A stretch of DNA of 53,379 bases from Reclinomonas americana ATCC 50394 (lineage: Eukaryota). Below the pieces are notes generated by a model that did not search any database, was not told the origin of the DNA, and was given only the letters and a program-made list of their open reading frames with translations. The first letter of the stretch is position 1; each line of letters starts with the position of its first letter. This document shows, piece by piece, positions 27,974 through 53,365 of this stretch. The translations under genes and the position numbers were made by a program. The stretch covers positions 151,117 through 204,495 of the forward strand of contig PS015106.1 in the NCBI GenBank assembly GCA_048213135.1. The letters are read 5' to 3'.

Positions 27974-30900
27974 TCAATATGCATGTGTGCGCAAGGGAAT
28001 GCGGCTCACCGATAGCGGCGCGTTTGTGATTGGTGTCGGCGCTGTCGGTCGCGGGATGGCCAGTGCAGACTCACGGCCTACGTTTCGGAGTCGACGGCGC
28101 GCAAGGTGGGCCAGCGAGCTTGGCGACTCCGGCACCACGCTCTCGAATTGCAGTTCATGCAACAGTGCTGCGTGTTGCTGTTGACGCTGTTGTCGCCGTT
28201 GTTCTCGGTGTAACGCGATCAGTTGATACAGCTGTGCAGACGGAGCGACTCCGGATACACTCGGTAGTGGCGGTGCAGCGACTGACGCATCCGTCGGCGT
28301 GCCGTGTGCGCCAAGATCCACGTGGTCAGCGTCGTCCTGCGTCGCTTCTGGCGATCGCTGCTGCTGCCACTGCTGCTGCAGTCGGTAGAGAGCAATGAGC
28401 TGGAACAGATCGGACGACGGCTGCTGCAAGGGTGGTTGAGGAGGCGGTTGTGGACGCTGCTGCTGCTGTTGTTGCTGTTCGCGGAATAGCTGGATGAGGT
28501 GACGGAGTTCCGCAGAGGGCTCGTGGAATGCCGTCGCAGGCTGCTGTCGTTGCTGCTGCTGCTGCTGCCGCTGCTGTTGTTGCTGTTCGCGGAATAGCTG
28601 GATGAGGTGACGGAGTTCCGCAGAGGGCTCGTGGAATGCCGTCGCAGGCTGCTGTCGTTGCTGCTGCTGCTGCCGCTGCTGCTTGCGGAACAGATCAATC
28701 AGTTCATGCAGTTTCAGCGATGGCGCTGGACGCGACAGAGGCTGCTGAGTGGTGGTGACCAAATCAAGTAACGGTCGTCGAGCCACATTCGGCACGGAGA
28801 CCTGCGATCGTCGAGGCGAGAGCAGAGCAGTCGGTGTCGAGGCTGACGACGACAGACGCGCACTGTCCTCAGTGTCGAGAACAGAACCCGGCAAGTCCGG
28901 CTCAGCCAGTTCATCAACCCCCACTCCTGCAGCTTCCGCCTCCTGCTGCTGCCGTTTCCAAGCATCCATGAGCAAACGGATTCGACCCTCGGCGGTGTTC
29001 GATTCTCGCACAAGTCTCAGCAGCGACGTGACAGCAGTCGGTGTAGAGTGCACGGCGGCCACTGCTTCGTCAAATGCTCGCCGCTCGGCGACAGGGCTCA
29101 TTTCTTCATCGTCTTCGACCATGCCGTCGAGGGCGGCGGCCAGTGGCTCGTTGGCCATTCGCATGGCCAGCGCCGCACGCACCGCCTGCGCAGCGGCGGC
29201 CTTCTTGCGTCGCCGCAGGACGACCCACATAGTGACCAGCGTCGCGACAAGTATCACACCACAGCAGCAGGCAACTACCACTCCGACAATCACCGGTACG
29301 CTCAGTCGTGAGCCAGCGACCGCTACTCCAGGCGTCGATGCAGCTGCTTGACCTTGAGCTGCGAACACACATACATCTTATCAGCGACGCGCGCGCACAT
29401 AAAGCTGGTGCACGTGCGCTTATTGCTCACCAGCGGCGGCACCGACGCCAACCGACAACACAGTTGGAGTTTGGACATCCACGAGANNNNNNNNNNNNNN
29501 NNNNNNNNNNNNNNNNNNNNNNNNNNNNNNNNNNNNNNNNNNNNNNNNNNNNNNNNNNNNNNNNNNNNNNNNNNNNNNNNNNNNNNNNNNNNNCGACACA
29601 CTCATGAGGCGACAGAGCAGACTGCAAACCAGCAAACTGAGAGTGGAATCGTACCCGTGACGAGAAGAGGCGGCGACATCGGCACAAAAGAGTCTGCGTG
29701 CGACAAACTGCACCATGTGTATCAGCGAGAAGAGCGAGAAGAAAGCGGATGCACAACGAGATCACGCACCGGACACATATGAACACGTACGGGTACGATG
29801 GGTACCGCGGAGGCAGCTCTGGGTCGTCGATTGGTGGCGTGGGTACTGGCGTGATGTGGATAACCACAGAGCCGAGTTCATCGTGCCGGGCCACGGCTTC
29901 GGAGGTTACCTCCAAACCTCGCACAGTCGGACTGCCAGCAACGCATGCATTCTCCGACGTCGCCAGCGCAACAGTCATGCCAGTCAATGGCAACAGTATT
30001 CCAGAAACACTTACTCTCGAAGCCTCCATGTTTGACACGGCGCGAGGAGAGAAACCAGACAGCGCCGGCGCTACAGATCGCACAGTGTTGTTGTCAGCAA
30101 CTATCACTTGCCGGTGGCCACGCCGAACATACCTCGCACGTGAATGGGATTCACATCGACAGCCACGAAATCATCGCTCGTCGCCGACCTACGACTCCGA
30201 CAGTTAATGAAGAAGCATGGTCATAATCATTCATACATGCACAGACGCACCGGAAACACAAGAATAAATCGCTGGGGGAACCCGACGGGACAGTCACGAC
30301 CACCGAGACCGTGGAGGCACCCACCGCGATAGAAGGCGTCGCGGGACGAACAAGAGCAGCTCCCACGTGCTGACCAGTGCATTGCGCTACGTCGGCCACA
30401 AGAAGGTACTCATCTGCGACAGACGGATGCGATGTGAGATTGCGATTGGTTCGAGGCTCAGGATACTCGCATCAGACACAAACCATTCGTTGCGAGACTT
30501 GACCCTGCAACCACGACATCGTTGGTCCCGAGAGAGCCAATCACGTGTGTGAGCAAAGTGGTAGAGCCTGCAAGTATACAATACACACACAAGTGAGAAA
30601 AAAGTCAGGTATGTCGACGGGAACAGCTCGTGTGCCCACCATTACATGAGGGGCCAAATGTCCCAGCAGCACAGCTCCTAAATGTCGAGAAGGGCACAGC
30701 GTTGCTCGCTCGCTTCACGCCTTGGAAGGAGCTCACAAGACGCACAAAGTACATCGTACTAGGTTCTAACACTGGCTCCGTCGTCTGAGAGCTGACATAT
30801 GTTGGATACGGAGACGGCGGCGGGACGGGAACAGGCACTTCGGCGAGCGAAATAACCTGGCCCGCAAACGAGTCGTCAATAGCGATCTCGAAAGTTGCGC

Positions 30901-33900
30901 CGAATGGAAAAATGACCGGAGTAAAAGAGGCAGAAAAGGAGGCAAGACGTTGGCGAACATCCGTAGCAGCGAGCCGATCTGGCAGAGGCACCGCGAACGC
31001 AGTGGCGGTCTGTACAGTACTCACAAACCGATAGGTTCCACCACTGTATGAGAGCAAGGCAACCACGCGGTAATAGAATGGCTGACCGGGAATGGTACCA
31101 GTCAGAGTGCAGGACACGCGGGATGAATCCGTCGCGCTGTCCGCTGCCACCGTCAACACCGATGACGAAAGACTCGCATCAGCTACAGAAGCCTCGAAGA
31201 TCACAGTCAGCGGCTGCCCGCTGTTGTTAACCGCAGTGCCGTACAACACTGCGGTCAGCGGATCAACCAGCGCGGGCGGAAGCACCTGCAGAGTCGCAAT
31301 CTGCGGCGTGGCGAACGACCGAAGCGGACTCATTTGTGCCGGTGTACCGTCACTTGTCGCCACGACAACTCGGTAAAAGTATACCGTGTCGGGCGTCAGA
31401 CCACCCAACGCAGCAGATACAGCCACATCAGCAGACGCCGGTCCACTCACACTAGCTGGCGTAACAGTGGATGCCAACTGAATCGTGCCACTCACAAATG
31501 TGGACGATGTCGAGTACTCAATCGTCACACTCACACCTGGTCCGTTCTGCACATTCACCGTGCCATGCAACACTGCCTGTACAGCCGTCACCTGTGTCGC
31601 TCCTCCGGTCGTCGTAGCCGTGGCCAGCTTCAATGTCGTGAACGTGGCTGACACGCTGTACTGCGCCGGCGTGCCGTCGCTCGTCGCTGCCACAACTCGG
31701 TAATAGTACACCGTGTTGGGTGTAAGGCCAGTGAGCGATGTTGATACAGCCACATCCGTAGACGCCGGTCCACTCACACTCGCTGGTGTCACGGAGGATG
31801 CCAACAGAATCGTGCCACTCGCAAACGCGGACGATGTCGAGTACTCGATCGTCACACTCACACCTGGTCCGTTCTGCACATTCACTGTGCCGTGCAACAC
31901 TGCCTGCACCGCTGTCAACTGTGTCGCACCGCCAGTCGCGGTAGCCGTGGCCAACTTCAGTGTCGTGAACGTGGCCGACGTGCTGAATTGTGACGGCGTG
32001 CCGTCGATCGTCGCTGCCACCAATCGGTAGTAATACACCGTTTCGGGGGTCAGACCACTCAACGCAGCTGACACAGCAACATCCGTAGACGCCGGTCCAC
32101 TAACATTCGCCGGTGTCACGGAGGGTGCCGACTGGATCGTGCCACTCGCAAAAGTGGACGATGTCGAATACTCGATCGTCACACTCACACCTGGTCCGTT
32201 CTGCACATTCACCGTGCCGCGCAATAATGCCTGCACAGCCGTCACTTGCGTTGCTCCACCAGTCGTGGTTGCTGTTGCAAGCTTCAGTGTCGTGAATGTC
32301 GTCGACGTGCTGTACTGTGCCGGTGTGCCGTCACTTGTCGCCGCAACCACTCGGTAATAGTACACCGTGTCGGGTGTGAGGCCGGTGAGTGCTGCAGATA
32401 CAGCCACATCCGTAGACGCCGGTCCACTCACACTCGCTGGCGTCACGGAGGGTGCCAACAGAATCATGCCACTCGCAAATGTCGAAGACGTCGAGTACTC
32501 GATCGTCACACTCACACCTGGTCCGTTCTGCACATTCACCGTGCCGTGCAACACTGCCTGCACAGCAGTCACTTGCGTTGCTCCACCAGTCGTCGCAACC
32601 GTAGCCAACTTCAATGTCGTAAATGTGGCAGACGTGCTATATTGTGCGGACGTACCGTCACTCGTCGCCGCCACCACTCGATAGTAATACACCGTATCGG
32701 GCGTCAGACCACTCAACGCAGCTGACACAGCAACATCGGTCGATGCCGGTCCACCAACACTCGCCGGTGTCACGGAGGGTGCCAACTGAATCATGCCACT
32801 CGCAAACGTGGACGATGTCGAGTACTCGACAGTCACACTCACACCTGGCCCGTTCTGCACATTCACCGTGCCGTGCAACACTGCCTGTACAGCTGTCACC
32901 TGCGTTGCACCACCAGTCGTCGAAGCCGTTGCAAGTTTCAGTGTCGTGAACGTAGCCGACGTGCTGTACTGTGCTGGCGTGCCGTCGCTTGTCGCCGCAA
33001 CCACTCGGTAATAGTACACCGTGTCGGGTGTGAGGCCGGTGAGTGCCGCAGATACAGTCACATCCGTAGACGCTGGTCCACTTACATTTGCTGGCGTCAC
33101 TGTGGGTGCCAACTGAATCGTGCCACTCACAAATGTGGACGATGTCGAGTACTCAATCGTCACACTCACACCTGGCCCGTTCTGCACATTCACCGTGCCG
33201 TGCAACAATGCCTGTACAGCTGTCGCCTGCGTTGCACCACCAGTCGTGGTTACTGTTGCAAGCTTCAGTGTCGTGAATGTCGTCGACGTGCTGTACTGCG
33301 CCGGCGTGCCGTCACTCGTCGCCGCAACCACTCGGTAATAGTACACCGTGTCGGGTGTGAGGCCGGTGAGTGCTGCAGATACAGCCACATCCGTAGACGC
33401 CGGTCCACTCACACTCGCTGGCGTAACAGTGGATGCCGACTGAATCGTGCCACTCGCAAACGTGGACGATGTCGAGTACTCGATCGTCACACTCACACCT
33501 GGTCCGTTCTGCACATTCACCGTGCCGTGCAACAATGCCTGTACAGCAGTCACTTGCGTTGCACCACCTGTCGTCGCAGCCGTCGCAAGTTTCAGTGTCG
33601 TAAATGTGGCAGACGTGCTGTACTGCGTCGGCGTGCCGTCGCTCGTCGCTGCCACCACTCGATAGTAATACACCGTATCGGGCGTCAGACCACTCAACGC
33701 AGCTGACACAGCAACATCGGTCGATGCCGGTCCACCAACACTCGCCGGTGTCACGGAGGGTGCCAACTGAATCATACCACTCGCAAATATCGACGACGTC
33801 GAAAACTCGATCGTCACACTCACACCTGGTCCATTCTGCACATTCACCGTACCGTGCAACACTGCCTGCACAGCCGTCACTTGCGTTGCTCCACCTGTCG

Positions 33901-36900
33901 TCGCAACCGTTGCCAACTTCAATGTCGTAAATGTGGCCGACGTGCTGTACTGCGCCGGCGTGCCGTCACTCGTCGCCGTCACCACTCGATAGTAATACAA
34001 AGTGTCAGGAGTCAGACCCGCAAGCGCAGCTGAGACTGCTACATCGGTCGATGNNNNNNNNNNNNNNNNNNNNNNNNNNNNNNNNNNNNNNNNNNNNNNN
34101 NNNNNNNNNNCTGGCGTAACAGTGGATGCCAACTGAATCGTGCCACTCGCAAACGTGGACGATGTCGAGTACTCGATCGTCACACTCACACCTGGCCCGT
34201 TCTGCACATTCACCGTACCGTGCAACACTGCCTGCACAGCAGTCACTTGCGTCGCTCCTCCGGTCGTCGTAGCTGTGGCCAGCTTCAATGTCGTGAACGT
34301 GGCTGACACGCTGTACTGCGCCGGCGTGCCGTCGCTCGTCGCTGCCACAACTCGGTAATAGTACACCGTGTTGGGTGTAAGGCCAGTGAGCGATGTTGAT
34401 ACAGCCACATCCGTAGACGCCGGTCCACTCACACTCGCCGGTGTCACGGAGGGCGCCAACAGAATCGTGCCACTCGCAAACGCGGACGATGTCGAGTACT
34501 CGATCGTCACACTCACACCTGGTCCGTTCTGCACATTCACTGTGCCGTGCAACACTGCCTGCACAGCTGTCACCTGTGTCGCACCGCCAGTCGCGGTAGC
34601 CGTGGCCAACTTCAGTGTCGTGAACGTGGCTGACACGCTGTATTGTGCCGGTGTGCCGTCACTTGTCGCTGCCACCACCACTCGGTAGTAATACACCGTA
34701 TCGGGCGTCAGACCACTCAACGCAGCTGATACAGCCACATCCGTAGACGCCGGTCCACTAACATTCGCCGGTGTCACGGAGGGTGCCAACTGAATCGTGC
34801 CACTCGCAAACGTGGACGATGTCGAGTACTCGATCGTCACACTCACACCTGGCCCGTTCTGCACATTCACCGTACCATGCAACAATGCCTGTACAGCAGT
34901 CACTTGCGTTGCTCCACCAGTCGTCGCAACCGTTGCCAACTTCAATGTCGTAAATGTGGCCGACGTGCTATATTGTGCGGACGTACCGTCACTCGTCGCC
35001 GCCACCACTCGATAGTAATACACCGTGTCAGGAGTCAGACCCGCAAGCGCAGCTGACACAGCCACATCTGTAGACGCTGGTCCACTCACACTCGCCGGTG
35101 TCACGGAGGGTGCCAACTGAATCATACCACTCGCAAATATCGACGACGTCGAAAACTCGATCGTCACACTCACACCTGGTCCATTCTGCACATTCACCGT
35201 ACCGTGCAACACTGCCTGTACAGCCGTCACCTGTGTCGCTCCTCCAGCCGTGGTAGCCGTCGCCAGATTTACCGTCGTGAAGGACACTGGGGCCGGAATC
35301 TGAAGACTGGCCCCACCACCGCTCTCCGAAATCGAGCGAACATAGTATGTCGTGTTGGGCAGCAATCCAGTTACAGTGGCAGTAACAGCAGTGTCAGTCA
35401 TGCCAGTCACTGTTGCAGGCGAGATACCTGTCGACAGCGTCGTGACATTGTTGCTAAATGTACTGGAGGTCGAGTACTGAAAAGAAACCGTCACGGCTGG
35501 TCCTCCGTTTGCATTCACCGACGCACTCAACACTGCACTGGTGGCGGCGAAAGAGGCCGGTGACACCTTTGTCGATGACGAGAGAGGAGGCGTGGCGAAT
35601 GCAAGGCCGGAGCTCACTTGCACGTCGCTTCCACTGGTAGCGATGACGCGAAAGTAGTAGAGAGTGTTAGGTACCAGTGGACTGACAGTTGCCGACACCG
35701 AAGTCGCGGTGGCGCCGGTAACGGTGGCGGGTGACACTGCCGAAACGGCAACGACTCCAGTGGTGAATGCAGCTGAAGTCGTATATTCCATGGTCACCGT
35801 AGCCGCAGGACCGTTCTGCGCGTTTACGATACCGCGCAGTACTGACGATGTTGCACCGGATACGGTGGGCGCCGATGTAGTCACAGTCGGACTGAGATAC
35901 GTATCCATCTGCGTGGTGCCGACCTTGAAGTATGTGCCAACAGTTGGTGCATACTGCACACACACGCTAAACAGGGCTGGAACAGTTCCAGCCGGCAGTG
36001 ACAGGCCGGTGCCACCAATCGTCACTGTCAACTGCGAAGCAGTAGCATCAGCCGTCACGCTCGACGCGGTGGTCGAGAGTGGGTTTGTTGAGGTGCACAA
36101 TGCGCCTGGCTCCAGCTGAACGCCGAGAACTTGACTTGCTGGCTGAAGATTGGAGCCGCTAACGACAAATGATGCCGTTGGATCTCGGGCTTTGATCAAT
36201 GCCGGGCTGAATGACTCGCCAAGAGCTGTAGAGACGCGTGGAATGAATTGAAAGTGTGAGAACGCTCTGTCAATGAACTGCGAGAATGAAGAGAGAAAAA
36301 CGCAACTGACAACTAGATTTGCACTGCCGACTTTGAAGTATGAACCGCTTGCGGAGAACCGAATGCAGACCCTGTAATACAGAGGCATCCACGTGAGACC
36401 CAGAATCGACCGTGCACAAACTACTACTACGCACGAGAGATTGCCACCAGGCACAATGCCGACCGCAACCGGCACGACCAGCTGCTGACGATTGCCGGAT
36501 ACCACAAACACGCCGGTCGGTAACACCTGATTCATGGAAAGCGGTCCACCTGGTGTACACGTGCTTGAGCGCTCCAGGAGCACATTATCCGTGGAAGTGA
36601 AGAACGACCCAGTGAGCGTCAGCGTCACAGATGAGTCTGCTCCGCGGACGAGGATCGGTGAGAAGGCAGTGCCGGAGCCTGTACGTATATCATGCAATTA
36701 GTGCTTCCAGCTGGAGAGGACATTTGGTGCGAGCGCGAGTGAGCTTGAGCACGCACCGACTTCAACGCCCAAGGCCAGCTGGTACGCTTCGCTGGCGGAC
36801 CAACGCACACACAGCTGCTTGGCACCGACGGCATTCGCCCCTGACGCATCGACAGTCATGGAGTACGTGGTGGCGCTGACAGCATTGATGTTGCTAACGG

Positions 36901-39900
36901 GAGCAACGCTTGAAACGCTGCTGCAGTTGTCGGAGATGACAAATGCAGCTCCGTCTTCCGCAGTACTGACAAAGCCTTGCCCGGTTACGGCGAGTGCGCG
37001 AGCAAGCAACGGCTCCAACTTGGCGGGAGTGGTGGAAGAGAAGGCAGCTACACACGTGATGCACACAGCATTAAGCCATCACACAGATAAAGCCAAACGA
37101 GAAGCAAAGACTCCGAACCAACAGACAACGCAGCAACATCCACATACGCAGCCGTCGAGGCCCACCGAATGCACATCCGAAACGCCGCCCCAGAGGAGGC
37201 GCTGGCATCGACAGACACCAGCATCGAGTTTGTGCTTAGATATGAGCCAGGAGTGATAGTAACACCGCTGGCCACAGTTGGCGAAGTCGCCGAGGGTGTG
37301 GAGCAACTGGCCGCCAACACCACGGCTGACGAGTCGTATGAACCAGCACCCAAGTCGGCCAGCGACAGCGTGACAAGCCCGCCACCGCTAATGGTGACCA
37401 CTTGTGAAGCGCGATTGAGCACAGCCGGCACGGACAGGTTCGACACGACAGCTGTGCGGAAACAGGGGACACGCGTGAGACAGGCGCAATGTGCAAGTCT
37501 CGAAACGGGTCATATCTCACCGACACTGAGCGGAGACACAAGCGAATACTGCGAATGCGCGGAGCTGCTCCACCGAATGCACAGCGAATATGCACCTGCC
37601 GTCACGGAGGTGGCGTCGACGGTCAGCATCATGGATGTCGGCAACGTTGCAGTTGAGACGGCGATNNNNNNNNNNNNNNNNNNNNGGCAGTTCCAGTTCT
37701 GGGGGAGGGAAGTAAAATGGATTGGCATGTATCTGTCAGCGTGGAAGGAGGGAGGGTCATCGAGATCGACAGCAGCCAGCAAGGACGCAACCGAATGGCG
37801 TGATTGCCGGCGTCGGCAATGTACAGTGTCTGGCTTGTCGGGTCCACATAGACGCCGCGAGGTTGGTTGAACGCCGCAACACTCCCTGTGCCGTCAGCCC
37901 ACAACGGGGTGCCCGATTGTCCGGCAATGGTGGTCACCACACCACCGCTATCAATGCGACGCAGTGCATGGCTCAACGTCTGTCAGTAACGCCACACACA
38001 GTGTCAGCAAGTGTTTCTCCGCATGCATAAAGTCGCGTGAGCGCACTGCACTTACATCGGCGACGTAAAGAAAGTTGGCGGAAGTGTCAAACGACACGGA
38101 GGCCGGTCTGCAACGAGGAGTGAGAAAAAACAAGGTGGTAGCGATACCAGGAGCCATGCCGCCGTCAACTCACGCATTGAATCGAGCTGCACTGCCAGTG
38201 CCGTCTTGGTAGCCGCGCAGACCGGCCGTGCCGGCAAATGTGGTTACTGCGAACGTGCTGAGCACAACTCGTCGAATGGTGTTGTAGCTGCCCATGTTGT
38301 AAACAGCGGTCAGCAGCTCGCCAACACGGATGAGTGGCGTGATGAGGGCGACCACACTCACGAGGTGTCCGCAATGTATGCGTTGCCGGCGCCGTCGAGC
38401 GTGATGCCCTGCGGGTTGTTGAAGCGAGCAGCAAGGCCGGTTCCATTGGCCGTGCCCAGCACAGTGGCAAGGCCGGCGACTGTAGTCACACTCCACACAA
38501 ATGCCGGCATGGTGGTGGCGTACTCCATAGTGATTGATGCTGTGCCTACGCCGCTGGCGTCGACGGTTCCCATCATGGTGGCGGCACTGTCGGCAGTGAC
38601 TGCGGAGCCGGTGGACGCCAGCTGAGGTGCACTGGTCATGGTGGTGAAGCCGAACACGTTGCCGACAATGGGCACGGCAGATGAGGTGGCCACAGCACGG
38701 TAGTAGTAAATGGTGTTCGACGTCAAGCCGGTGACTGCGGCAGATACCAGCGAGCTCGAAGAGCCAGTGAGTACACTCGGCGATGTGGCAACGACGCTCG
38801 CCTGCGGAGCCGTCATCTTTCGGATTACGTTACTGAGGCTGCGCGCAGAATGAGAACAGAAGCGCAGACCCTGTCGAGCTCACACACACTCAATGGTACA
38901 CACCTGTCGGCGACATACACATCACCGCCGGCGTTCACCGCCACACCAAGCGGATAGAAGAAGCGCACAGCGGCGCCCGTACCGTCCACATAACCAGGTC
39001 CATTGGAGCCACCGGCGTATGTGGTCGTGACACCGGCAGCAGTGGTCACACGTCGGATTCCTTGATTATTGAAGTCGCCAATAAAGAGTGCGTCCTCGGT
39101 GGGCGTCAACGCGATGCCTACGAGAAAGTTGAATCGTGCCGCAGTACCGGTGGCGTCGGTATTTCCGCCCGCAGTGCTGCCCGCAAGCGTCGTCACCACA
39201 CCGGCCGATGTAATGGCTCGAATGAGACGGTTCTGGGTGTCGGCCACATACACCGTGCCGGAGGACGCGACACAAATGCCCGAGGGCCCTGGAGGCAGTC
39301 GCGTATGAGATAAAGACCGTGAGCGATGAGTGGCAACACGAGAAAAACCATTAAAGGTGGCCGCAGTGCCGGTGCCGTTGGCGGAGCCGGAGGTGCCCGT
39401 CGCATTGCCGGCAAACGTCGACACGGCGCCGGTGGCCACGACCACTTTTCGAATGGTGTTCGAGTCCGTGTCCGCAATGTACAAATTGGTAACAGTTGCA
39501 TCGGCATCCACGTCACCGGGGTTCTTGAGGATGCCTGGTGTTCCACTGCCGATGCCGTAGGAGCCAGCGGTACCGGCTACGGTGCTTACAATCGCCGTCG
39601 ATGTGACCTGTCAGCATGGTGAGAAGACTGCAAGTCGTTGATAGAGCGCACGATGCACGCAATGCACCTTGCGAATCGTGTTGGAACCCGAGTCGGCCAC
39701 CCACAATGTATCCGTGGAATCAATACCAAGACCACGTGGTCCATTAAACTGCGCCGCAGTGCCGGTGCCATCAGCAGTGCCGCTGACGCCAACCTGACCG
39801 GCAAAGGTGCTGGTGACTCCGCCGGAGGTCACTCGCCGAATGAGATGATTGCCAGTCTGTGTGCAAAGTTTTGGTCGACGTCCAGTGAGAAAAAGGAAAA

Positions 39901-42158
39901 AGCGCGAAGGGGGGACTACTGCTGCTGCGCAACATCGGCCACAAAGATATTGCCAGTGGAATCCACCACGACATCATTCGGGGTGTTGAAGCGCGCCGTG
40001 CTACCGTCGGTGGTACCAGCGTTGCTGACGGAGCCGGCAAAGGTAGACACGGTGGAAGTGGAAAGCACGATCTTGCGGATAGCATTGTTGGTGCTGTCGG
40101 CCACATACAGCAGACCGGCCTTGTCGGAGCGCAAGCCTCGAGGATAGTAGAAGCGAGACGCGGTACCGACACCGTCAGCGTTGCCCGAGTAGCCAGAGCG
40201 GCCTACACACGGAGAGAGAGGAGGGGGGGGGTAGGGAGGGAGGGAGAGGGAGGGAAGGAGAGAGGACGCATGAAAACAAAGACTATAAACTGATAAAGCG
40301 AAAGCCAACAGGGAGACGCAACCGCAAATGGTCGTGACTGTGTAGGGCGCGGTTGTGGAGACACGGCGAAGACTGTGATTGTTTTGGTCCGTAACGTAGA
40401 AGAAACCGGCGCCGTCGAGCGCGCCACCAGCAGGATTGTTGAAAGTTGCAGCAAGTCCATTGCCGTCGTTGCTTGATGAAGCTCCCGAACCGGCAACCGT
40501 GGTCACCGTGCCTCCGGGAATCGTCATCTGTGGAAGCGCAGTGCGGTGAATGACAGCACACGAATACCAGGGAGATGATGACCGCAACTGTTCGGATGGT
40601 GCGGTTGTTATTGTCGACCAGCCACGCAAGGCCATTGGCCGAGTCGATAGAGATGCCCCAGGGCTACGCACGCAGCATGCATTCAGCTTGCGATAGACTC
40701 ACCAGCGACGGCGCGACAAAGGAACACGCACCGAACTCAGACGCGCCACACTGCCTGTTCCGTCGACATTGCCGGGGGTGCCCGCCGTTCCTGCAATGGT
40801 CGTCACCACGGCACCGGGCACCGTGACGCGGCGGATGATGGAGTTGTCGGTCTGTGTTGGTGTGCAGTCGTCAGCGAGCACAGCAACGAACTGAGCTGCG
40901 CATCGTCGTCCATCACGCAACATCGCACAAATACAACGACGAAGTGACACTGTCGTAGTCGATGCCGGCCGGATTCTGCAGCAGAGTGTGAGGAGAACAG
41001 AGACGGGTTCTCGCCAAGAAGAAGATGTGCGCGCGAGTGTACCTGGAACCTGGCGGCCGAGCCCGTGCCATCCACACTTCCGGAGGAGGCACAGGTGCCA
41101 GCAAATGTGGTCACCGCGCCGCCGGGAGTCGTGACGCGCCGAATGCAGTGATTGGCGCCCTGGAGAGGGATGAGGGAGAAGGAGGGAGGGGAGAGGGAGG
41201 TAGAGGGGAAAGGGTACAGAGAAGAAAGGTAAGGGTGCGTGGGAAGGCCAAGAGAGAGAGAGGGAGAGTGGAGAGCGTGGAGAGAGAAGCAAGATAGGAG
41301 TGTGAGGTAACAAGTGAGGGGGATGACAAGCACGAGTGACACGCGGAGTGGCAGAGTCCAAGAGCAAGAGCAAGAGAGAGAGNNNNNNNNNNNNNNNNNN
41401 NNCACAAGTTAACGAGGGACGACACGAAACGGACGGGGAGAGAGACAGCGATCCCCCCGCACCTGTGCCTGTGCCATCTGCTGTGCCGCTGCTGCCGACG
41501 TTGCCCGCGAGCGCCGTCACAACAGCGGCGGGTGAGATTACACTGTGCGTGAACGCCATTGACACCAAGAGGTCAGCCTTCGGAGAAGCAAGCGGCGAGG
41601 GAGTGAGACACACACCGAATAACATGATTAGCTCTGAGGGGGGTTAGGAAGTGTGAGTGGCCGACAGAGACAGCAAGAACAAGCGACGACGAACGGACGA
41701 AGGACACGCACCGATCGGCGACATACACGTTGCCAAGCGAGTCGACGGCCACGCCGTAGGGACCGCTGAACTTGGCCGCGGTTCCCGTGCCCAGTGTGGA
41801 GCCCGCCGCCGGTGGTGTGCCCGCCATCAACGACGAGTACGAGTAGAATGTGGTCTGCGAGGTGCCATACTGTACCGTCACCGTGGTCGACGGCGTGTCG
41901 TTGGCACTCGCGAGTGCACTCATCGTGGCTCCGTTGACGAGGATCTCACTGGGTGGCGCAGTGCCGATGGTCTGTGCGGCGTCGGTGCTCCGTGGCATCA
42001 GCACGATCAGCAGGAGGAGCGCGCAGAGAGCGAGCGTGCTGGAGGCATCGCGAAGTAATCTGTGTTGGCGTGGCGGGGGTGAGGAGGAGGGGGAAAGGGT
42101 GGGGAGAGTGGGGAGAGAGAAGAGAGAGAGCGCACACGCATTGCATTCGCGATTGCAT
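27974..42158 (-). CDS. Giant type I membrane protein: signal peptide, NHL beta-propellers, IPT/TIG-like domains, tandem FN3-like domains, TM helix, Gln-rich repeat tail
   Basis: Signal peptide ..LALCALLLLIVLMPRSTDA. At least 15 NHL units (TxAG..G..DG.G..A.F..P.G...D...YVAD..N..IR), SP...xxTG.NF-type units, 109-aa repeats with GLTPDTVYYYRVVA, TM VIVGVVVACCCGVILVATLVTMWVVL-RRRKK. Spans four N gaps, so continuity is inferred. Confidence 0.8.
28466..28680 (-). repeat. 108 bp near-exact tandem duplication in the cytoplasmic tail
   Basis: PATAFHEPSAELRHLIQLFREQQQQ occurs twice; GCGGAATAGC at 28481 and 28589. Confidence 0.9.
31300..35275 (-). repeat. At least 12 tandem 327 bp (109 aa) FN3-like coding repeats
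   Basis: Near-identical units KLAT..TGGATQVTAVQA.LHGTVNVQNGPGVSVTIEYSTS..; gap at 34054-34110. Confidence 0.95.
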
Positions 42159-49575: not shown

Positions 49576-50476
49576 CCGCCGTGGGCATCAAGGGCACCGA
49601 CGCTCTGGTGGTCAATGCGCAACGCGGTGCCGTGCTTGCCTTCGGCTCGTCGGCACAGCTGGCCACGGCCGCTGCACGGAATGCAGTTTTCCAGTTGGCT
49701 GCTGCGGCCGGTGTGTTTCATTTCTTGACCTTGTCCGCGCTTTTCTTCGATGCCCATGTGCGCGATTGCAGAGGATGGCGCCGTGGCTTTGCCCGATGCT
49801 GATGCTCGCATGATCGGTGGCAAGTTTGTGGCTGTCGTTGACGGATCATCGGTGGCCGGCGGCTATGGGTGCGGCTGAGACGCAGACAGAGAGAGAGAGA
49901 GAGTGCTGTTGGAGATCATCATCTCATTCGTGCTGTGTGCAGCTACTCTGGCCTCTTCTGGTCCGACGCTGGTCTCTCGCGTGCCTGGATTGGTGCCGAG
50001 GGTGCATCAGTGGCCGCGCAGAGCGGTGCTGTGCTCAATCGCGACTCAGGTGCCGTGCAAGCCGCGGTGACTGCGGGCCAGGCCAATCTGGTGCCGAAGC
50101 CTGACGTGCGTTGTCACATGTTGCTTTTCCCTTTATTCCAGCATCTCATTCCTCGCGTATTCAGGCCGTGGTGTTTGTGTCGTCGGCCGCCAAGAAGAGT
50201 GGCCGTGTGGACTCGCAGGAGAAGCTGCTGTCGGTGCTGTTGGCACGGCCGGCGGTGCTGACAACGGATCCATTCCAGTTGTCTGCGGCACTGTGGTCCC
50301 GAGCGCAGGCCTCCAAAACACCACTTCTGGTGGTCAAGTCTAACGACGAGGTGGCCAACTTCTCAGGGATCGCCAACGCCACGGCCGACGTGAAGGAGAA
50401 CCCCGCCGCTGTGGAGGCTTTCCGAGGCGTTTTCCCGGCGCCGGCTCCACCAGCCGCCGATGCTGCCAAGAAGTAA
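49576..50476 (+). CDS. 3' part of a gene, possibly a catalytically degenerate ATP-PEPCK-like protein (5' exons in or before the gaps)
   Basis: Four exons joined by GT-AG introns, TAA at 50476. LVVNAQRGAVLAFG, FWSDAGLSRAW.G and KPDAVVFVS recall PEPCK segments, but no GxxGxGKT is present. Confidence 0.5.
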
Positions 50477-50800
50477 GCCTACAGCAGCAGCAGCAGCAGC
50501 AACAGCGTTGTGTCCTTGTATTCGCGTCCGGTGCACCCGCACCCCATTCTCTTCACATTAACAGTGAAAGTAACCTATGCTTTTCTCAAATGATACCTCT
50601 ATCGCGGCTGAGCGCCTTTAATCGCGCACTCAGCAACACAATTTGTTCACCCGGTCTCTTACTACGCACACACACACACACTCGCCGAGAGTTGCACACA
50701 CGCCACCACGCTCACACCCGCACAAAAACATAGAGGATACAGATTGCAGTGATGATGAACGAGGCGCCGCGCAGTTCGACACCTCCCGAGTCCCACATTT

Positions 50801-50872
50801 CTGCATGCCACGACCGGGTAAGCCAAGTGTGACACACATGCGAGTACACGAGATGGTGCATTCACTACTCAC
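50801..50872 (-). promoter_or_regulatory. Predicted 72 nt intron in the eRF1 3'UTR (potential EJC/NMD signal)
   Basis: G|GTGAGT donor at 50872, CTTAC branch-like motif, TGCAG acceptor at 50801, typical length for this genome, 138 nt after the TAA. Confidence 0.6.
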
Positions 50873-51010
50873 CCCCTCGTTTGAACATTTAACAACACAC
50901 ACACATACGACAGATAACGCAATGCATACACAAGAAGAAAAGCCAAGCAAAAAAAAGACATTCGTCGTCGTCGACTGCAAACATGGAGACAATAGAGAGA
51001 CTGCCGCGGA

Positions 51011-53365
51011 TTACATAAAGTCTGTGTGTGGCAAGCAATCTGTGAGCACGAATCGCAGCACGGAACACGACGCAGCGTGCATCAAACAAACCATCGGGAT
51101 CCCAGTCTGCATAAGCAAGCATACACAAGGCGCAGAGTGAGACATCGAGTGACTGATATGTCTATCACAGACTCTCTGTCTTCCTTTCTCAAGAAAACGA
51201 TAAGAATGTTGCCCCCGTATAGTGCCAAGTATCCACGATAGAGCACATCATTGGCTTGGTATGGAGTGAATAAGAGCAGATCATTCTTGGCCATCTAGGT
51301 CGCTGATAACCGCACTAACGAACGGCTGCCAGCTGATGAGAGGCCTCAACAGGGGGGAGAGAGAGAGACAGGGGGGGAAAGAAGGTGGGTTCTTGTTCAC
51401 ACCGTATCTCTTCTTCTCATTTCCTCACTCATGCACAACCTCTTTCTCCTCCTACTCACTTCAGCCAAAGGAGGTGGCCTCTTGCTCACACGATATCTCT
51501 TCATCTGTTTTCCTCTCTCATGTACATCCTCCTTCTCATTTCATCCTATTCTTCTGTTTCACAGAAGGGAGAAAGTGAGACAGGAGGTGGTCTCTTGTTC
51601 ACACAATATCTCCTCTTCTCCTTTCCTCTCTCATGCACATCCTCTTTCTCCTTCTTACCACCAGCCGATCCCCTTCCTGTTCTTCCCAATATCTCTTCTT
51701 CTCTTTCCCTTGTATCACTCTCTTTCTCCTCCTCTTCACTTCATCCTATTCCTCTGTATCACTCACCGTCGTCCTCCTCCTTGCCCGTAATCTCCAGATA
51801 CTCATTCAACTCCGTCAGGTCAATGGCATAGCGCAGAATACCACCAATGCCACCAAAGCCGCGCACAAACTGCGAGCCCTCCTGGCTGAGGTTGGTGACG
51901 AATTCGAGATGGCAACCGAACGTCTTGTATGCGATCGTCAGCCAGTCGGTCATTGGGTCCGAGTCGACGACCTCCAGGTGGGAACCTGCAGCACGAATAT
52001 TTTTTAGCCCCGACATTTTCTCTTCTCCAACACACAACACAAAACAAGTGACAACTCACCAGTCTCCGGGTCCACAAAGTGGCTCTCGTCCTTGGCCTGC
52101 TCGGGGGTGAGGAACTTGAACATTTCATCTGCAAGCGCAATTTAACAATCAGCATCGCGACATCACAACATCTCGTGACTCTCCCTCCTCTCACTAACCA
52201 CCACTGGCAGTGTTGCGCATGACATAGCGCGTGCACTCGAGGTTTTCCCACACAATCAGCGTCTCCACGGCGCCGAGTTCGAGTGCCTTGAGTGTGTCGG
52301 ATACACCAAACACGAACTTGTTCGTGTCTGCAGCACTATCCAGTCAGCAAGCGCACATTTCGCAAGACACAAGACACACGGCGCTTCGCTCAATCAAGAC
52401 CTTGGTGAATCTGCTCGAAGAAGTGATTGATCAACTTCTTCTCCTGCACAAACTTGACCGAGGACAATGATTCGGCAGCCAACTCAATGGCCTGGTTGAA
52501 GCCAGCCTCGCCACCGTACGCCACATCGACACTGCAAATGACCTTGCAGGCCAGGCGCGGATCAAACATGTCCGAGCCGCCCAATTCTGTCTTGAAGTCG
52601 GCCGAACCAGCCAACACCAGTCCCGACACATTCGCTCGGTCGTTGGCGATGAAGAGTTGCGTGGCACACTCGGCCACCTTGCGCAAGTAGTTGTGGCGCT
52701 TCTCCAGACGCAGACGGGCGAAACGCACGGCTGACTGACCACCACGACCGTGTTTCTGCAAATCGAACGAGTGATGAATTCACCTGCAAAGTAAATGGCG
52801 AGCGCGCGCGCGCGCGCACACACTCAGACCTTGGGCAGGTCGACGAGGAACTTGTGAATGACCTCGCGCGAGTTGCCACGCAGTGTACCAAACAGGCAGC
52901 CATTACCGTCCATCACTGCAGTAATCGATTGATCAGCAAGGACACGCATCCACCCCGGCTCTTGTGCACACAGCAACCCACCGATGAAGCCGAACGCCTG
53001 GTCGTCCACCAGCAGCTCCGACAGTGGCTCCGTGTGGAAGCGGTTGTCGCACAGGTACAGCGATGTGTTGATGGGCTTGAATGGTTCAAAGTCATACGTG
53101 ACCTTCTTCTCCTTGCCATCCTCGGTCAGCACCGTGCCGCAGTAGATCACCAAGCCGTTCGGCGGTGTCTGCTCGCCACCTTGGTGAGAGTGCTGCGCGA
53201 GGGCCAGTGCTCTAACAGCCATGCATGCACACAAACCTTGTTGTAGAGCTTCAGACGCTGCATCACAGATGTGATGGCATCGAGCACCGACTGACGATTC
53301 ACACGACTCTTGATGTTGGTGGCCGTGCCCTGCTCTTCGGAAAGCATCTTGTTTGCACGCGAGAT
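51011..53365 (-). CDS. ETF1: Eukaryotic release factor 1 (5' partial)
   Basis: [34 protein letters not shown]. The C-terminus EEDD-DWDPD-DFM-TAA is made by a 15 nt exon (51106-51092) and a terminal exon (51021-51011). Confidence 0.95.
51140..51333 (-). ncRNA. Structured intronic RNA element in the 660 nt eRF1 intron
   Basis: Four consecutive hairpins on the sense strand, two capped by GNRA loops (GAGA 51190-51187, GACA 51162-51159). Confidence 0.55.
51380..51700. repeat. 3-4 degenerate ~90-110 bp tandem repeats in the eRF1 long intron
   Basis: Recurring GGTGG..TCTTG.TCACAC..TATCTC..C.TCT..TTTCCTC.CTCATG.ACA.CCTC near 51383, 51473, 51586, partial near 51677. Confidence 0.75.

What the first reader, a model, noticed from the sequence alone, without database searches (positions are those of the whole stretch)
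50630..51013. eRF1 3'UTR has a readthrough-NMD autoregulation layout
Seen: after the TAA (51013-51011) the same frame stays open for ~126 codons to TGA 50632-50630. A consensus 72 nt intron (50872-50801, a multiple of 3) lies 138 nt downstream of the stop. Known: in angiosperms and Neurospora crassa, eRF1 mRNA is autoregulated by a 3'UTR NMD signal/intron; low eRF1 allows readthrough that removes the EJC and protects the mRNA. Inference: the same feedback logic operates in this protist, either ancestrally or by convergence. Caveat: the context TAA-TCC is not a classic leaky one.
Basis: partly seen in the sequence, partly recalled or inferred. Interest (0 to 1): 0.8.

Follow-up and report, generated by a model that had tools for sequence, protein, structure and literature searches.

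The report
Possible 3'UTR intron in protist eRF1
The gene for the protein that ends translation (eRF1) in this unplaced protist has a convincing-looking intron after its stop codon, which could let the cell's mRNA quality control hold eRF1 levels steady as in plants and fungi, but the stop is not a leaky one, the long open frame is missing from the second gene copy, and no RNA shows that the intron is spliced.

Summary
The coordinates hold. eRF1 ends DFM-TAA at 51013-51011 (spliced relative and in-genome paralog end alike), the frame is open for 126 codons, and 50872-50801 looks like an intron: 11.2 bits on a model from 120 introns of this genome, above all 8 held-out eRF1 coding introns; 0 of 25 control gene ends have one as good, chance about 1-4%; branch point weak. 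The long frame is not evidence: the second copy (contig C17) has two frameshifting indels and stops after 40 codons, and 2 of 25 controls are open as long. In both copies the next stop lies under 50 nt before, or after, the junction, as readthrough rescue needs, but 9 of 26 controls pass that too. The context TAA-TCCGCG has no +4C, no CARYYA, no hairpin, so a defining feature of the plant readthrough-NMD circuit fails. Best reading: a real UTR intron giving plain NMD feedback without a programmed leak (Selaginella-like; 0.38), level with a decoy (0.37). UPF1, UPF3, Mago are present; no RNA run was listed. The scan noted the full leaky layout before in three fungal genomes. Side find: an H/ACA snoRNA in the 660-nt intron.

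The parts
51767..53365 (-). eRF1 coding exons 7-13 of 15 (53365-53237, 53168-52982, 52915-52830, 52755-52401, 52327-52199, 52128-52060, 51985-51767); exons 1-6 lie beyond the window end
   Evidence: Pfam eRF1_2 and eRF1_3; spliced alignment on the C17 copy, 74% identical to P0121; window introns scored
51107..51766 (-). 660-nt phase-1 intron, host of a snoRNA-like element
   Evidence: donor 11.3 and acceptor 11.3 bits, strict branch site
51204..51345 (-). Box H/ACA snoRNA candidate: two hairpins, hinge box at 51287 (ANANNG here, ANANNA in three of the four copies outside eRF1), ACA at 51209-51207; first pocket fits a conserved 18S rRNA site
   Evidence: three loci in two copies each, 94-98% alike, placed shortly before acceptor-like sites, one locus in an eIF3e-like gene; fold z -2.4; pocket target found in the 18S V8f primer site; no Rfam match
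51092..51106 (-). 15-nt coding micro-exon (DWDPD)
   Evidence: matches DFDPE of P0005/P0121
51022..51091 (-). 70-nt last coding intron; acceptor 51022 has a near-perfect branch site
   Evidence: 7.9 bits; branch in the 92nd percentile
51011..51021 (-). Last coding bases and stop codon TAA (51013-51011), context ATG-TAA-TCCGCG, not a readthrough context
50873..51010 (-). 138-nt U-rich stretch after the stop (139 nt in C17); holds the two frameshifting indels between the copies (near 50962 and 50906)
50975..50997 (-). Strong acceptor-like site ending at 50975 without a branch site; probably a decoy
   Evidence: 10.9 bits, background 1 in 11,989 nt; branch score in the 3rd percentile
50889..50891 (-). 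TAA that is the next in-frame stop in the C17 copy (16 nt before the junction); out of frame in the window's copy
50801..50872 (-). Candidate 72-nt 3'UTR intron, G|GTGAGT...TGCAG, weak branch site at about 50823-50817
   Evidence: 11.2 bits; nulls; signals identical in both copies; splicing not shown
50630..51010 (-). Readthrough frame of the window's copy, 126 codons; non-coding codon use, no Pfam match, not kept in C17
50712..50798 (-). 28-codon frame after the candidate acceptor, in phase with eRF1's last two donors, coding-like codon use, hydrophobic end
   Evidence: LLR +7.9, top 1.3% of 854 non-coding windows; 17-residue hydropathy 2.28; no credible homologue
50617..50622 (-). ATTAAA, possible poly(A) signal; unsupported, since no consensus signal was found in this genome
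50138..50478 (+). Last exon of the convergent neighbour gene (stop 50476-50478); limits the eRF1 3' region to 532 nt
   Evidence: coding-like codon use, LLR +54.9; no Pfam match

Best explanation
The eRF1 mRNA runs on past 50801 and the 72-nt element is a real 3'UTR intron. Splicing leaves a junction 138 nt after a tight TAA-U stop, which makes the mRNA a partial NMD target. High eRF1 means efficient termination and more NMD, so eRF1 mRNA falls; low eRF1 weakens NMD and lets ordinary background readthrough carry ribosomes to within 16 nt of the junction or across it, which clears the mark. This is the two-component NMD-eRF1 feedback proposed for Selaginella, not the programmed leaky-stop circuit of seed plants. 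[quoted passage not shown] Inferred: transcription through the element, splicing, junction-dependent NMD, feedback. The extension peptide has no role.
For: Intron score 11.2 bits at the modal length, above 8 of 8 held-out coding introns of the same gene and 82% of 120 training introns; 0 of 25 control ends, 3.6% of shuffles, 3 decoys in 93,499 nt. Next stop NMD-safe in both copies. Sense-type T-over-A skew in 7 of 9 windows out to +360. Only 3 differences between the copies in the first 330 nt, fewer than in 10 of 10 control pairs (4-14). UPF1, Mago, UPF3 found. The divergent paralog has a plain 3' end (best candidate 4.4 bits, next stop after 19 codons), like the two eRF1 types of angiosperms. 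Precedent: intron 130 nt after the stop in Arabidopsis, 66 nt in Selaginella without a leaky context.
Against: No RNA. Branch site weak (likelihood ratio about 0.45). A 10.9-bit acceptor 170 nt upstream seems to be a decoy, so this U-rich stretch does make splice-like sites. An A-rich patch at +119 to +132 resembles the patches that end U-rich tracts in several controls, and control flanks lose their T skew after about 150 nt on average, so the mRNA may end before the donor. 3 of 10 control pairs have longer difference-free stretches. The Upf2 family was not found (the tool says this does not show absence). Intron-marked NMD is not universal in protists. The Selaginella circuit is itself a hypothesis in the paper.
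Confidence: 0.38

Rival explanations
1. Ordinary gene end: the mRNA stops near +120 to +140 or the element is never spliced; donor and acceptor are chance matches in TG-rich DNA and the open frames reflect an A-poor UTR.
For: Weak branch site; a second strong but branchless acceptor nearby; long frames common (2 of 25 at 126 codons or more); A content only 14% in the first 140 nt; frameshifts between the copies; 2 of 25 controls reach 9 bits or more.
Against: Chance of an 11.2-bit pair is about 1-4%; the gene was singled out in advance by precedent; low divergence and skew extend past the acceptor.
Confidence: 0.37
2. Full readthrough-NMD circuit: the stop leaks by design, through a signal unlike the plant CARYYA context.
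For: Intron candidate and next-stop position fit in both copies; the C17 geometry (16 nt before the junction) matches Arabidopsis (<25 nt); intron plus layout in 0.6% of shuffles and 0 of 29 controls at 8 bits or more; all three frames open for 39 codons or more in both copies, against 2 of 29 controls.
Against: TAA-T, no +4C, no CARYYA, no A at -2/-1, no stable hairpin; TAA-T occurs in 3 control genes; frame not conserved.
Confidence: 0.1
3. The intron is real but not an eRF1 sensor: either neutral (this genome is very intron-dense and its NMD may ignore junctions) or it makes a snoRNA host transcript NMD-sensitive so that snoRNA output is uncoupled from eRF1 output.
For: 14 coding introns in this gene; the gene hosts an H/ACA snoRNA candidate; human snoRNA hosts often yield NMD-sensitive RNA (PMC4233243); EJC-independent NMD in Tetrahymena.
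Against: The eIF3e-like host of the same snoRNA has no comparable element (best 6.5 bits); strong candidates are rare in control ends.
Confidence: 0.1
4. The acceptor at 50801 serves an alternative last coding exon: splicing from 51766 or 51091 gives an eRF1 with a hydrophobic tail anchor.
For: Both donors are phase 1 and join in frame to a 28-codon stretch with coding-like codon use (top 1.3%), a hydrophobic end and no difference between the copies over 125 nt.
Against: About ten windows were in effect tested, so p is near 0.1; no homologue; it loses the conserved DFM end; the good donor at 50872 needs no such reading; 0 papers.
Confidence: 0.05

Closest known systems
Seed-plant eRF1-1 intronic RT-NMD 3'UTR (Nyiko et al. 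2017, PMC5397192; abstract, passages, Discussion part 1 of 2, supplement passages and part 7 read)
   Same: eRF1 gene; intron about 130 nt after the stop (138 here); next stop close before or after the junction; extension peptide not conserved; a second eRF1 gene with a plain 3' end.
   Different: Plant stop context is CAATCA and almost invariant; here TAA-TCCGCG. Plant intron and NMD are shown by experiment; here neither is.
[quoted passage not shown] S10 legend)
   Same: 3'UTR intron more than 50 nt after a stop that is not in a readthrough context.
   Different: Single-copy gene there, intron at 66 nt; the circuit is proposed, not tested, in the paper; the intron here is only predicted.
Neurospora crassa erf1 readthrough and 3'UTR-intron NMD (Kurilla et al. 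2020, FEBS Lett 594:3504; not held, title seen only in a reference list)
   Same: By its title: eRF1 autoregulation through a 3'UTR intron.
   Different: Readthrough is part of it; earlier scan notes on fungi report a leaky stop and a hairpin, neither of which is found here. Details of the paper not seen.
NMD-sensitive snoRNA host genes (Lykke-Andersen et al. 2014, PMC4233243; abstract and passages read)
   Same: Translation-factor gene with an intronic snoRNA candidate and a possible NMD feature.
   Different: Human data; there the NMD forms come from alternative splicing; nothing shown here.

Membership tests
eRF1 (class I release factor) | eRF1 domains, NIKS, YxCxxxF and GGQ motifs, acidic C-terminus | tested here: met
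   Pfam eRF1_2 and eRF1_3 over cut-off; motifs visible in the modelled protein, 74% identical to P0121. Motif names are recalled.
RT-NMD 3'UTR (PMC5397192) | NMD element in the 3'UTR: spliced intron more than 50 nt after the stop, or UTR over 375 nt | tested here: inconclusive
   Strong candidate at +138; splicing and UTR length not shown.
RT-NMD 3'UTR (PMC5397192) | Stop codon in a readthrough context (stop-CARYYA, +4C foremost) | tested here: not met
   TAA-TCCGCG in both copies; no stable downstream hairpin.
RT-NMD 3'UTR (PMC5397192) | [quoted passage not shown] | tested here: met
   243 nt past the junction (C98), 16 nt before it (C17); 9 of 26 controls would pass a like test.
RT-NMD 3'UTR (PMC5397192) | Readthrough context conserved across relatives | not testable with these tools
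   No DNA of a close relative: best metagenome loci 47-65% identical; P0004, P0005 and P0121 came without DNA.
RT-NMD 3'UTR (PMC5397192) | mRNA rises without NMD and falls with more eRF1 | not testable with these tools
   Needs experiments.
Two-component NMD-eRF1 feedback (Selaginella type) | 3'UTR intron after a non-leaky stop | tested here: inconclusive
   Non-leaky stop met; intron predicted only.
Two-component NMD-eRF1 feedback (Selaginella type) | NMD and EJC machinery present | tested here: inconclusive
   UPF1, Mago, UPF3 found; Upf2 family not found; Y14, eIF4A3 and SMG factors not searched.
Box H/ACA snoRNA (side find, 51345-51204) | Hairpin-hinge-hairpin-tail with H box and ACA three bases before the end (recalled definition) | tested here: met
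   H box ANANNG in the two eRF1 copies and in C85, ANANNA in C611, C509 and C703; 0 of 38 pairs show a two-sided change (copies too alike).
Box H/ACA snoRNA (side find, 51345-51204) | Pocket pairs with rRNA around a U, 14-16 nt from the box | tested here: inconclusive
   First pocket (5+5 nt, 14 nt from the H box) predicts a 12-letter target; of its four variants, the one in the universal 18S V8f primer site is the one held by all 25 listed of 141 papers. The organism's own rRNA was not found (searches gave bacterial rRNA); second pocket untested.

The most novel reading that the evidence does not exclude
The 3' end of this eRF1 gene is an alternative-splicing switch: besides the normal DFM form, whose mRNA carries a 3'UTR junction and is NMD-sensitive, the phase-1 donors at 51766 or 51091 can splice straight to 50801 and give an NMD-immune mRNA for an eRF1 with a hydrophobic tail anchor, a membrane-bound release factor that my search did not find in print.
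Probability: 0.05. Interest if true: 0.75.

Novelty: new member of a known kind. Interest (0 to 1): 0.38.

Why it matters
eRF1 feedback through a 3'UTR intron is described for seed plants and Neurospora. A case in a protist that falls with neither (unplaced long branch) would bear on whether the circuit is ancestral or arose repeatedly, and a version without a leaky stop would be a living example of the simpler two-component stage that Nyiko et al. proposed as the precursor. My paper searches listed no protist case, but the library lacks most subscription papers, among them Kurilla et al. 2020, which may survey other eukaryotes. One RT-PCR settles the main doubt. As it stands the evidence is one predicted intron.

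Tried and rejected
RNA: no RNA holder listed, so no reads were laid. Relatives: the metagenome scan returned 80 loci, none close; comparing their 3' ends showed no transcript-versus-genome gap that marks a UTR intron. Taxon: CCT6 best identity 63%, unresolved in an 87-row tree; not placed. Poly(A) signal: no consensus among the control ends, so ATTAAA at 50622 is not used. Alternative gene ends: a 40-nt intron starting inside the stop codon (51014-50975) scores -4.0 and is shorter than all 120 training introns (minimum 58); acceptor 51040 is the branch site of 51022; acceptor 50975 lacks a branch site and its frame differs between the copies; a profile of 85 mostly distant homologues preferred 50975, the profile of the close relative gave DFM*. 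Readthrough peptide: non-coding codon use, no Pfam match. Small separate gene at 50861-50712: no Pfam match, no Atlas hit, 4 weak hits of which 3 are multi-stretch and 1 has no stretch. Rfam on 50400-52100: 3 matches, all far under the gathering score; no tRNA. Own rRNA searches gave only bacterial operons; the assembly holds bacterial contigs. The Mago control row had a wrong stop and was dropped; 4 further rows with more than 60 N were left out of the 25 clean controls.

Full report
The gene. The window's end holds the 3' part of an eRF1 gene on the minus strand (Pfam eRF1_2 and eRF1_3). The genome carries the locus twice, on C98 (the window) and C17, 96% alike over 1.6 kb; I read them as the two haplotypes, since most families searched came in such pairs. 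The closest proteins found are unnamed (P0004, 86% over one exon; P0005 and P0121, 74-76% over the whole). A spliced alignment to P0121 recovers 15 exons on C17, with 5-, 5- and 8-nt micro-exons near the start and a 15-nt and an 11-nt exon at the end. The protein ends DFM*, as P0005/P0121 do (EDFM) and as a divergent paralog in the same genome does (LDDFM*); 10 of 52 distinct eRF1 ends from the metagenome loci end FM or FI. Acceptor 51022 has a near-perfect branch site. The organism is an intron-dense eukaryote that I could not place.

The observation. In the window the frame after TAA is open for 126 codons, and a 72-nt GTGAGT...TGCAG element starts 138 nt after the stop. The second copy differs by a 1-nt deletion and a 2-nt insertion before the donor; there the frame stops after 40 codons, 16 nt before the junction. 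The long frame and the 3n length thus work together in one copy only, and the extension has non-coding codon use.

Is the intron more than chance? I built a splice model from 120 introns placed by homology in Ras-family and CCT genes (the second round used the model itself, so the set leans towards good sites). Lengths start at 58 nt and peak at 60-80. The candidate scores 11.2 bits; the 8 held-out eRF1 coding introns in the window score -3.2 to 9.7; 18% of training introns reach 11.2 in leave-one-out. Controls were gene ends whose stop I fixed by eye from C-terminal motifs: 19 of 33 ends printed, 8 of 58 models and 2 of 4 tubulin loci, plus Mago, which was mis-set and dropped; 25 of the 29 have few N. 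None has a candidate of 11.2 with the donor more than 50 nt after the stop, 2 reach 9, 3 reach 8. Shuffles of the eRF1 flank reach 11.2 in 3.6% of 2000; long introns, flanks and antisense gene bodies gave 3 decoys in 93,499 nt, about 1% per UTR. Against it: the branch site is weak (12th percentile; 2 of the gene's own introns are as weak or weaker), and a 10.9-bit acceptor at 50975 without a branch site shows that this U-rich stretch can make decoys. With a prior of about one in six I put the intron at roughly 0.6; that figure is my estimate.

Does the mRNA reach it? Unknown. No RNA run was listed and no poly(A) consensus emerged. T-over-A skew is positive in 7 of 9 windows out to +360, and the first 330 nt carry 3 differences between the copies against 4-14 in 10 control pairs; both hint at a long UTR. 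But 3 of 10 controls have longer clean stretches, control flanks lose their skew after about 150 nt, and an A-rich patch at +119 to +132 could mark an early end.

The open frame. 2 of 25 controls are open for 126 codons or more, 8 of 25 for 40 or more, and 9 of 26 have their next stop at +88 or later, which is all that rescue needs. All three frames are open for 39 codons or more in both eRF1 copies, against 2 of 29 controls and 0.35% of shuffles; the first 140 nt are A-poor (14%), which the whole-flank shuffle does not keep, so I give this little weight.

The stop context. Nyiko et al. define the RT-NMD 3'UTR by three features: an NMD element, a readthrough context (stop-CARYYA, +4C foremost) and a next stop in a safe place (PMC5397192). 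Here the context is ATG-TAA-TCCGCG in both copies; TAA-T also ends 3 control genes; the following 60-149 nt fold no better than shuffles (z +0.55, +1.46, +1.05). The second feature fails, so the gene is not filed as RT-NMD. It can still work like one in part: in C17 the next stop sits 16 nt before the junction, as in Arabidopsis (<25 nt), and the plant extensions are not conserved either. The paper's supplement lists Selaginella eRF1 with a UTR intron at 66 nt and a non-leaky stop and proposes a two-component NMD-eRF1 feedback for it. That is the closest match.

Machinery. UPF1 (213 bits), Mago and UPF3 families are present; the Upf2 family was not found, which the tool does not count as absence. 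In Tetrahymena NMD does not need Mago (PMC5499736, abstract), so presence does not show junction-dependent NMD. The divergent paralog (C3421/C5469; C14481 may be its N-terminal part) has no UTR intron candidate (4.4 bits) and a stop after 19 codons, which recalls the regulated and unregulated eRF1 types of angiosperms; one pair proves nothing.

Side finds that bear on it. The 660-nt intron holds a 142-nt element present at three loci, each in two copies and 94-98% alike, ending about 70-100 nt before an acceptor-like site; one host is eIF3e-like (PCI over cut-off, eIF3_N under it). It folds as two hairpins with a hinge box and a final ACA, and its first pocket fits the conserved 18S site of primer V8f (positions 1487-1507 in PMC12483254, seen in the listing). 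It is most likely an H/ACA snoRNA; Rfam has no match. That opens the rival that NMD features serve a snoRNA host (PMC4233243), though the eIF3e-like host shows no like element. The 28 codons after 50801 in phase 1 look coding-like and end hydrophobic; this is the novel case, at low odds.

Literature. Read: PMC5397192 (abstract, passages, Discussion part 1 of 2, supplement passages and part 7 of 7; the rest of Table S2 not seen), PMC4233243 (abstract, passages), PMC5499736 (abstract), PMC9809470 (two passages). Kurilla et al. 2020 is not held; title only. Searches: 85 papers, 25 listed; 0 with eRF1, UTR intron, protist, nonsense-mediated, readthrough; 0. Earlier scan notes report the leaky-stop layout in three fungal genomes; I did not check them.

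Verdict. A good intron candidate follows a tight stop; the long frame is incidental. Plain NMD feedback 0.38, decoy 0.37, programmed readthrough circuit 0.10, neutral or snoRNA-related intron 0.10, tail-anchored isoform 0.05. New member of a known kind if confirmed; interest 0.38.

Noticed in passing
window 51345-51204 (-); L002; L003:1532-1673; L004; L236; L237: Unannotated box H/ACA snoRNA candidate in the eRF1 intron, with near-identical copies in an eIF3e-like gene and a third gene; first pocket fits the conserved 18S V8f site; no Rfam family.
   Followed up: partly
G000:C3421 and C5469 (L230, L231), C14481 (L232): Divergent second eRF1 (43-50% to P0121) with GGQ kept, a long acidic tail ending DFM*, and a plain 3' end; the C14481 piece has NIRN where eRF1 has NIKS and may be its N-terminus.
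   Followed up: partly
G000:C17 (L006, L007) and C98 beyond the window end: The eRF1 N-terminal motif region is built from consecutive 5-, 5- and 8-nt micro-exons; the C-terminus from 15- and 11-nt exons.
   Followed up: partly
genome-wide training set: GTTGCG is the commonest donor (22 of 120), ahead of GTGAGT (19); earlier notes on this genome report the same class.
   Followed up: no
L041 and L043 (metagenome contigs): eRF1 genes of two related unnamed eukaryotes end TGA-CTTCCC with 44 and 48 open codons, a leakier-looking layout than the one studied here.
   Followed up: no
window 50891-50886 (-): A TAA directly followed by ATG opens a short frame that would cross the candidate intron in phase 1 into the 28-codon stretch (34 codons in all), intact in both copies.
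   Followed up: partly
window 51760-51350 (-): The 5' part of the 660-nt intron is an AG-rich stretch with internal duplications of about 60-120 nt, seen by eye.
   Followed up: no
window 30605-41600 (-): Very long gene with many tandem repeat units of about 100 residues and NHL-like repeats; names recalled, not tested.
   Followed up: no
G000:C1, C2: The assembly contains bacterial contigs (rRNA operon on C1, intronless chaperonin on C2); no eukaryotic rRNA was returned by two searches.
   Followed up: partly
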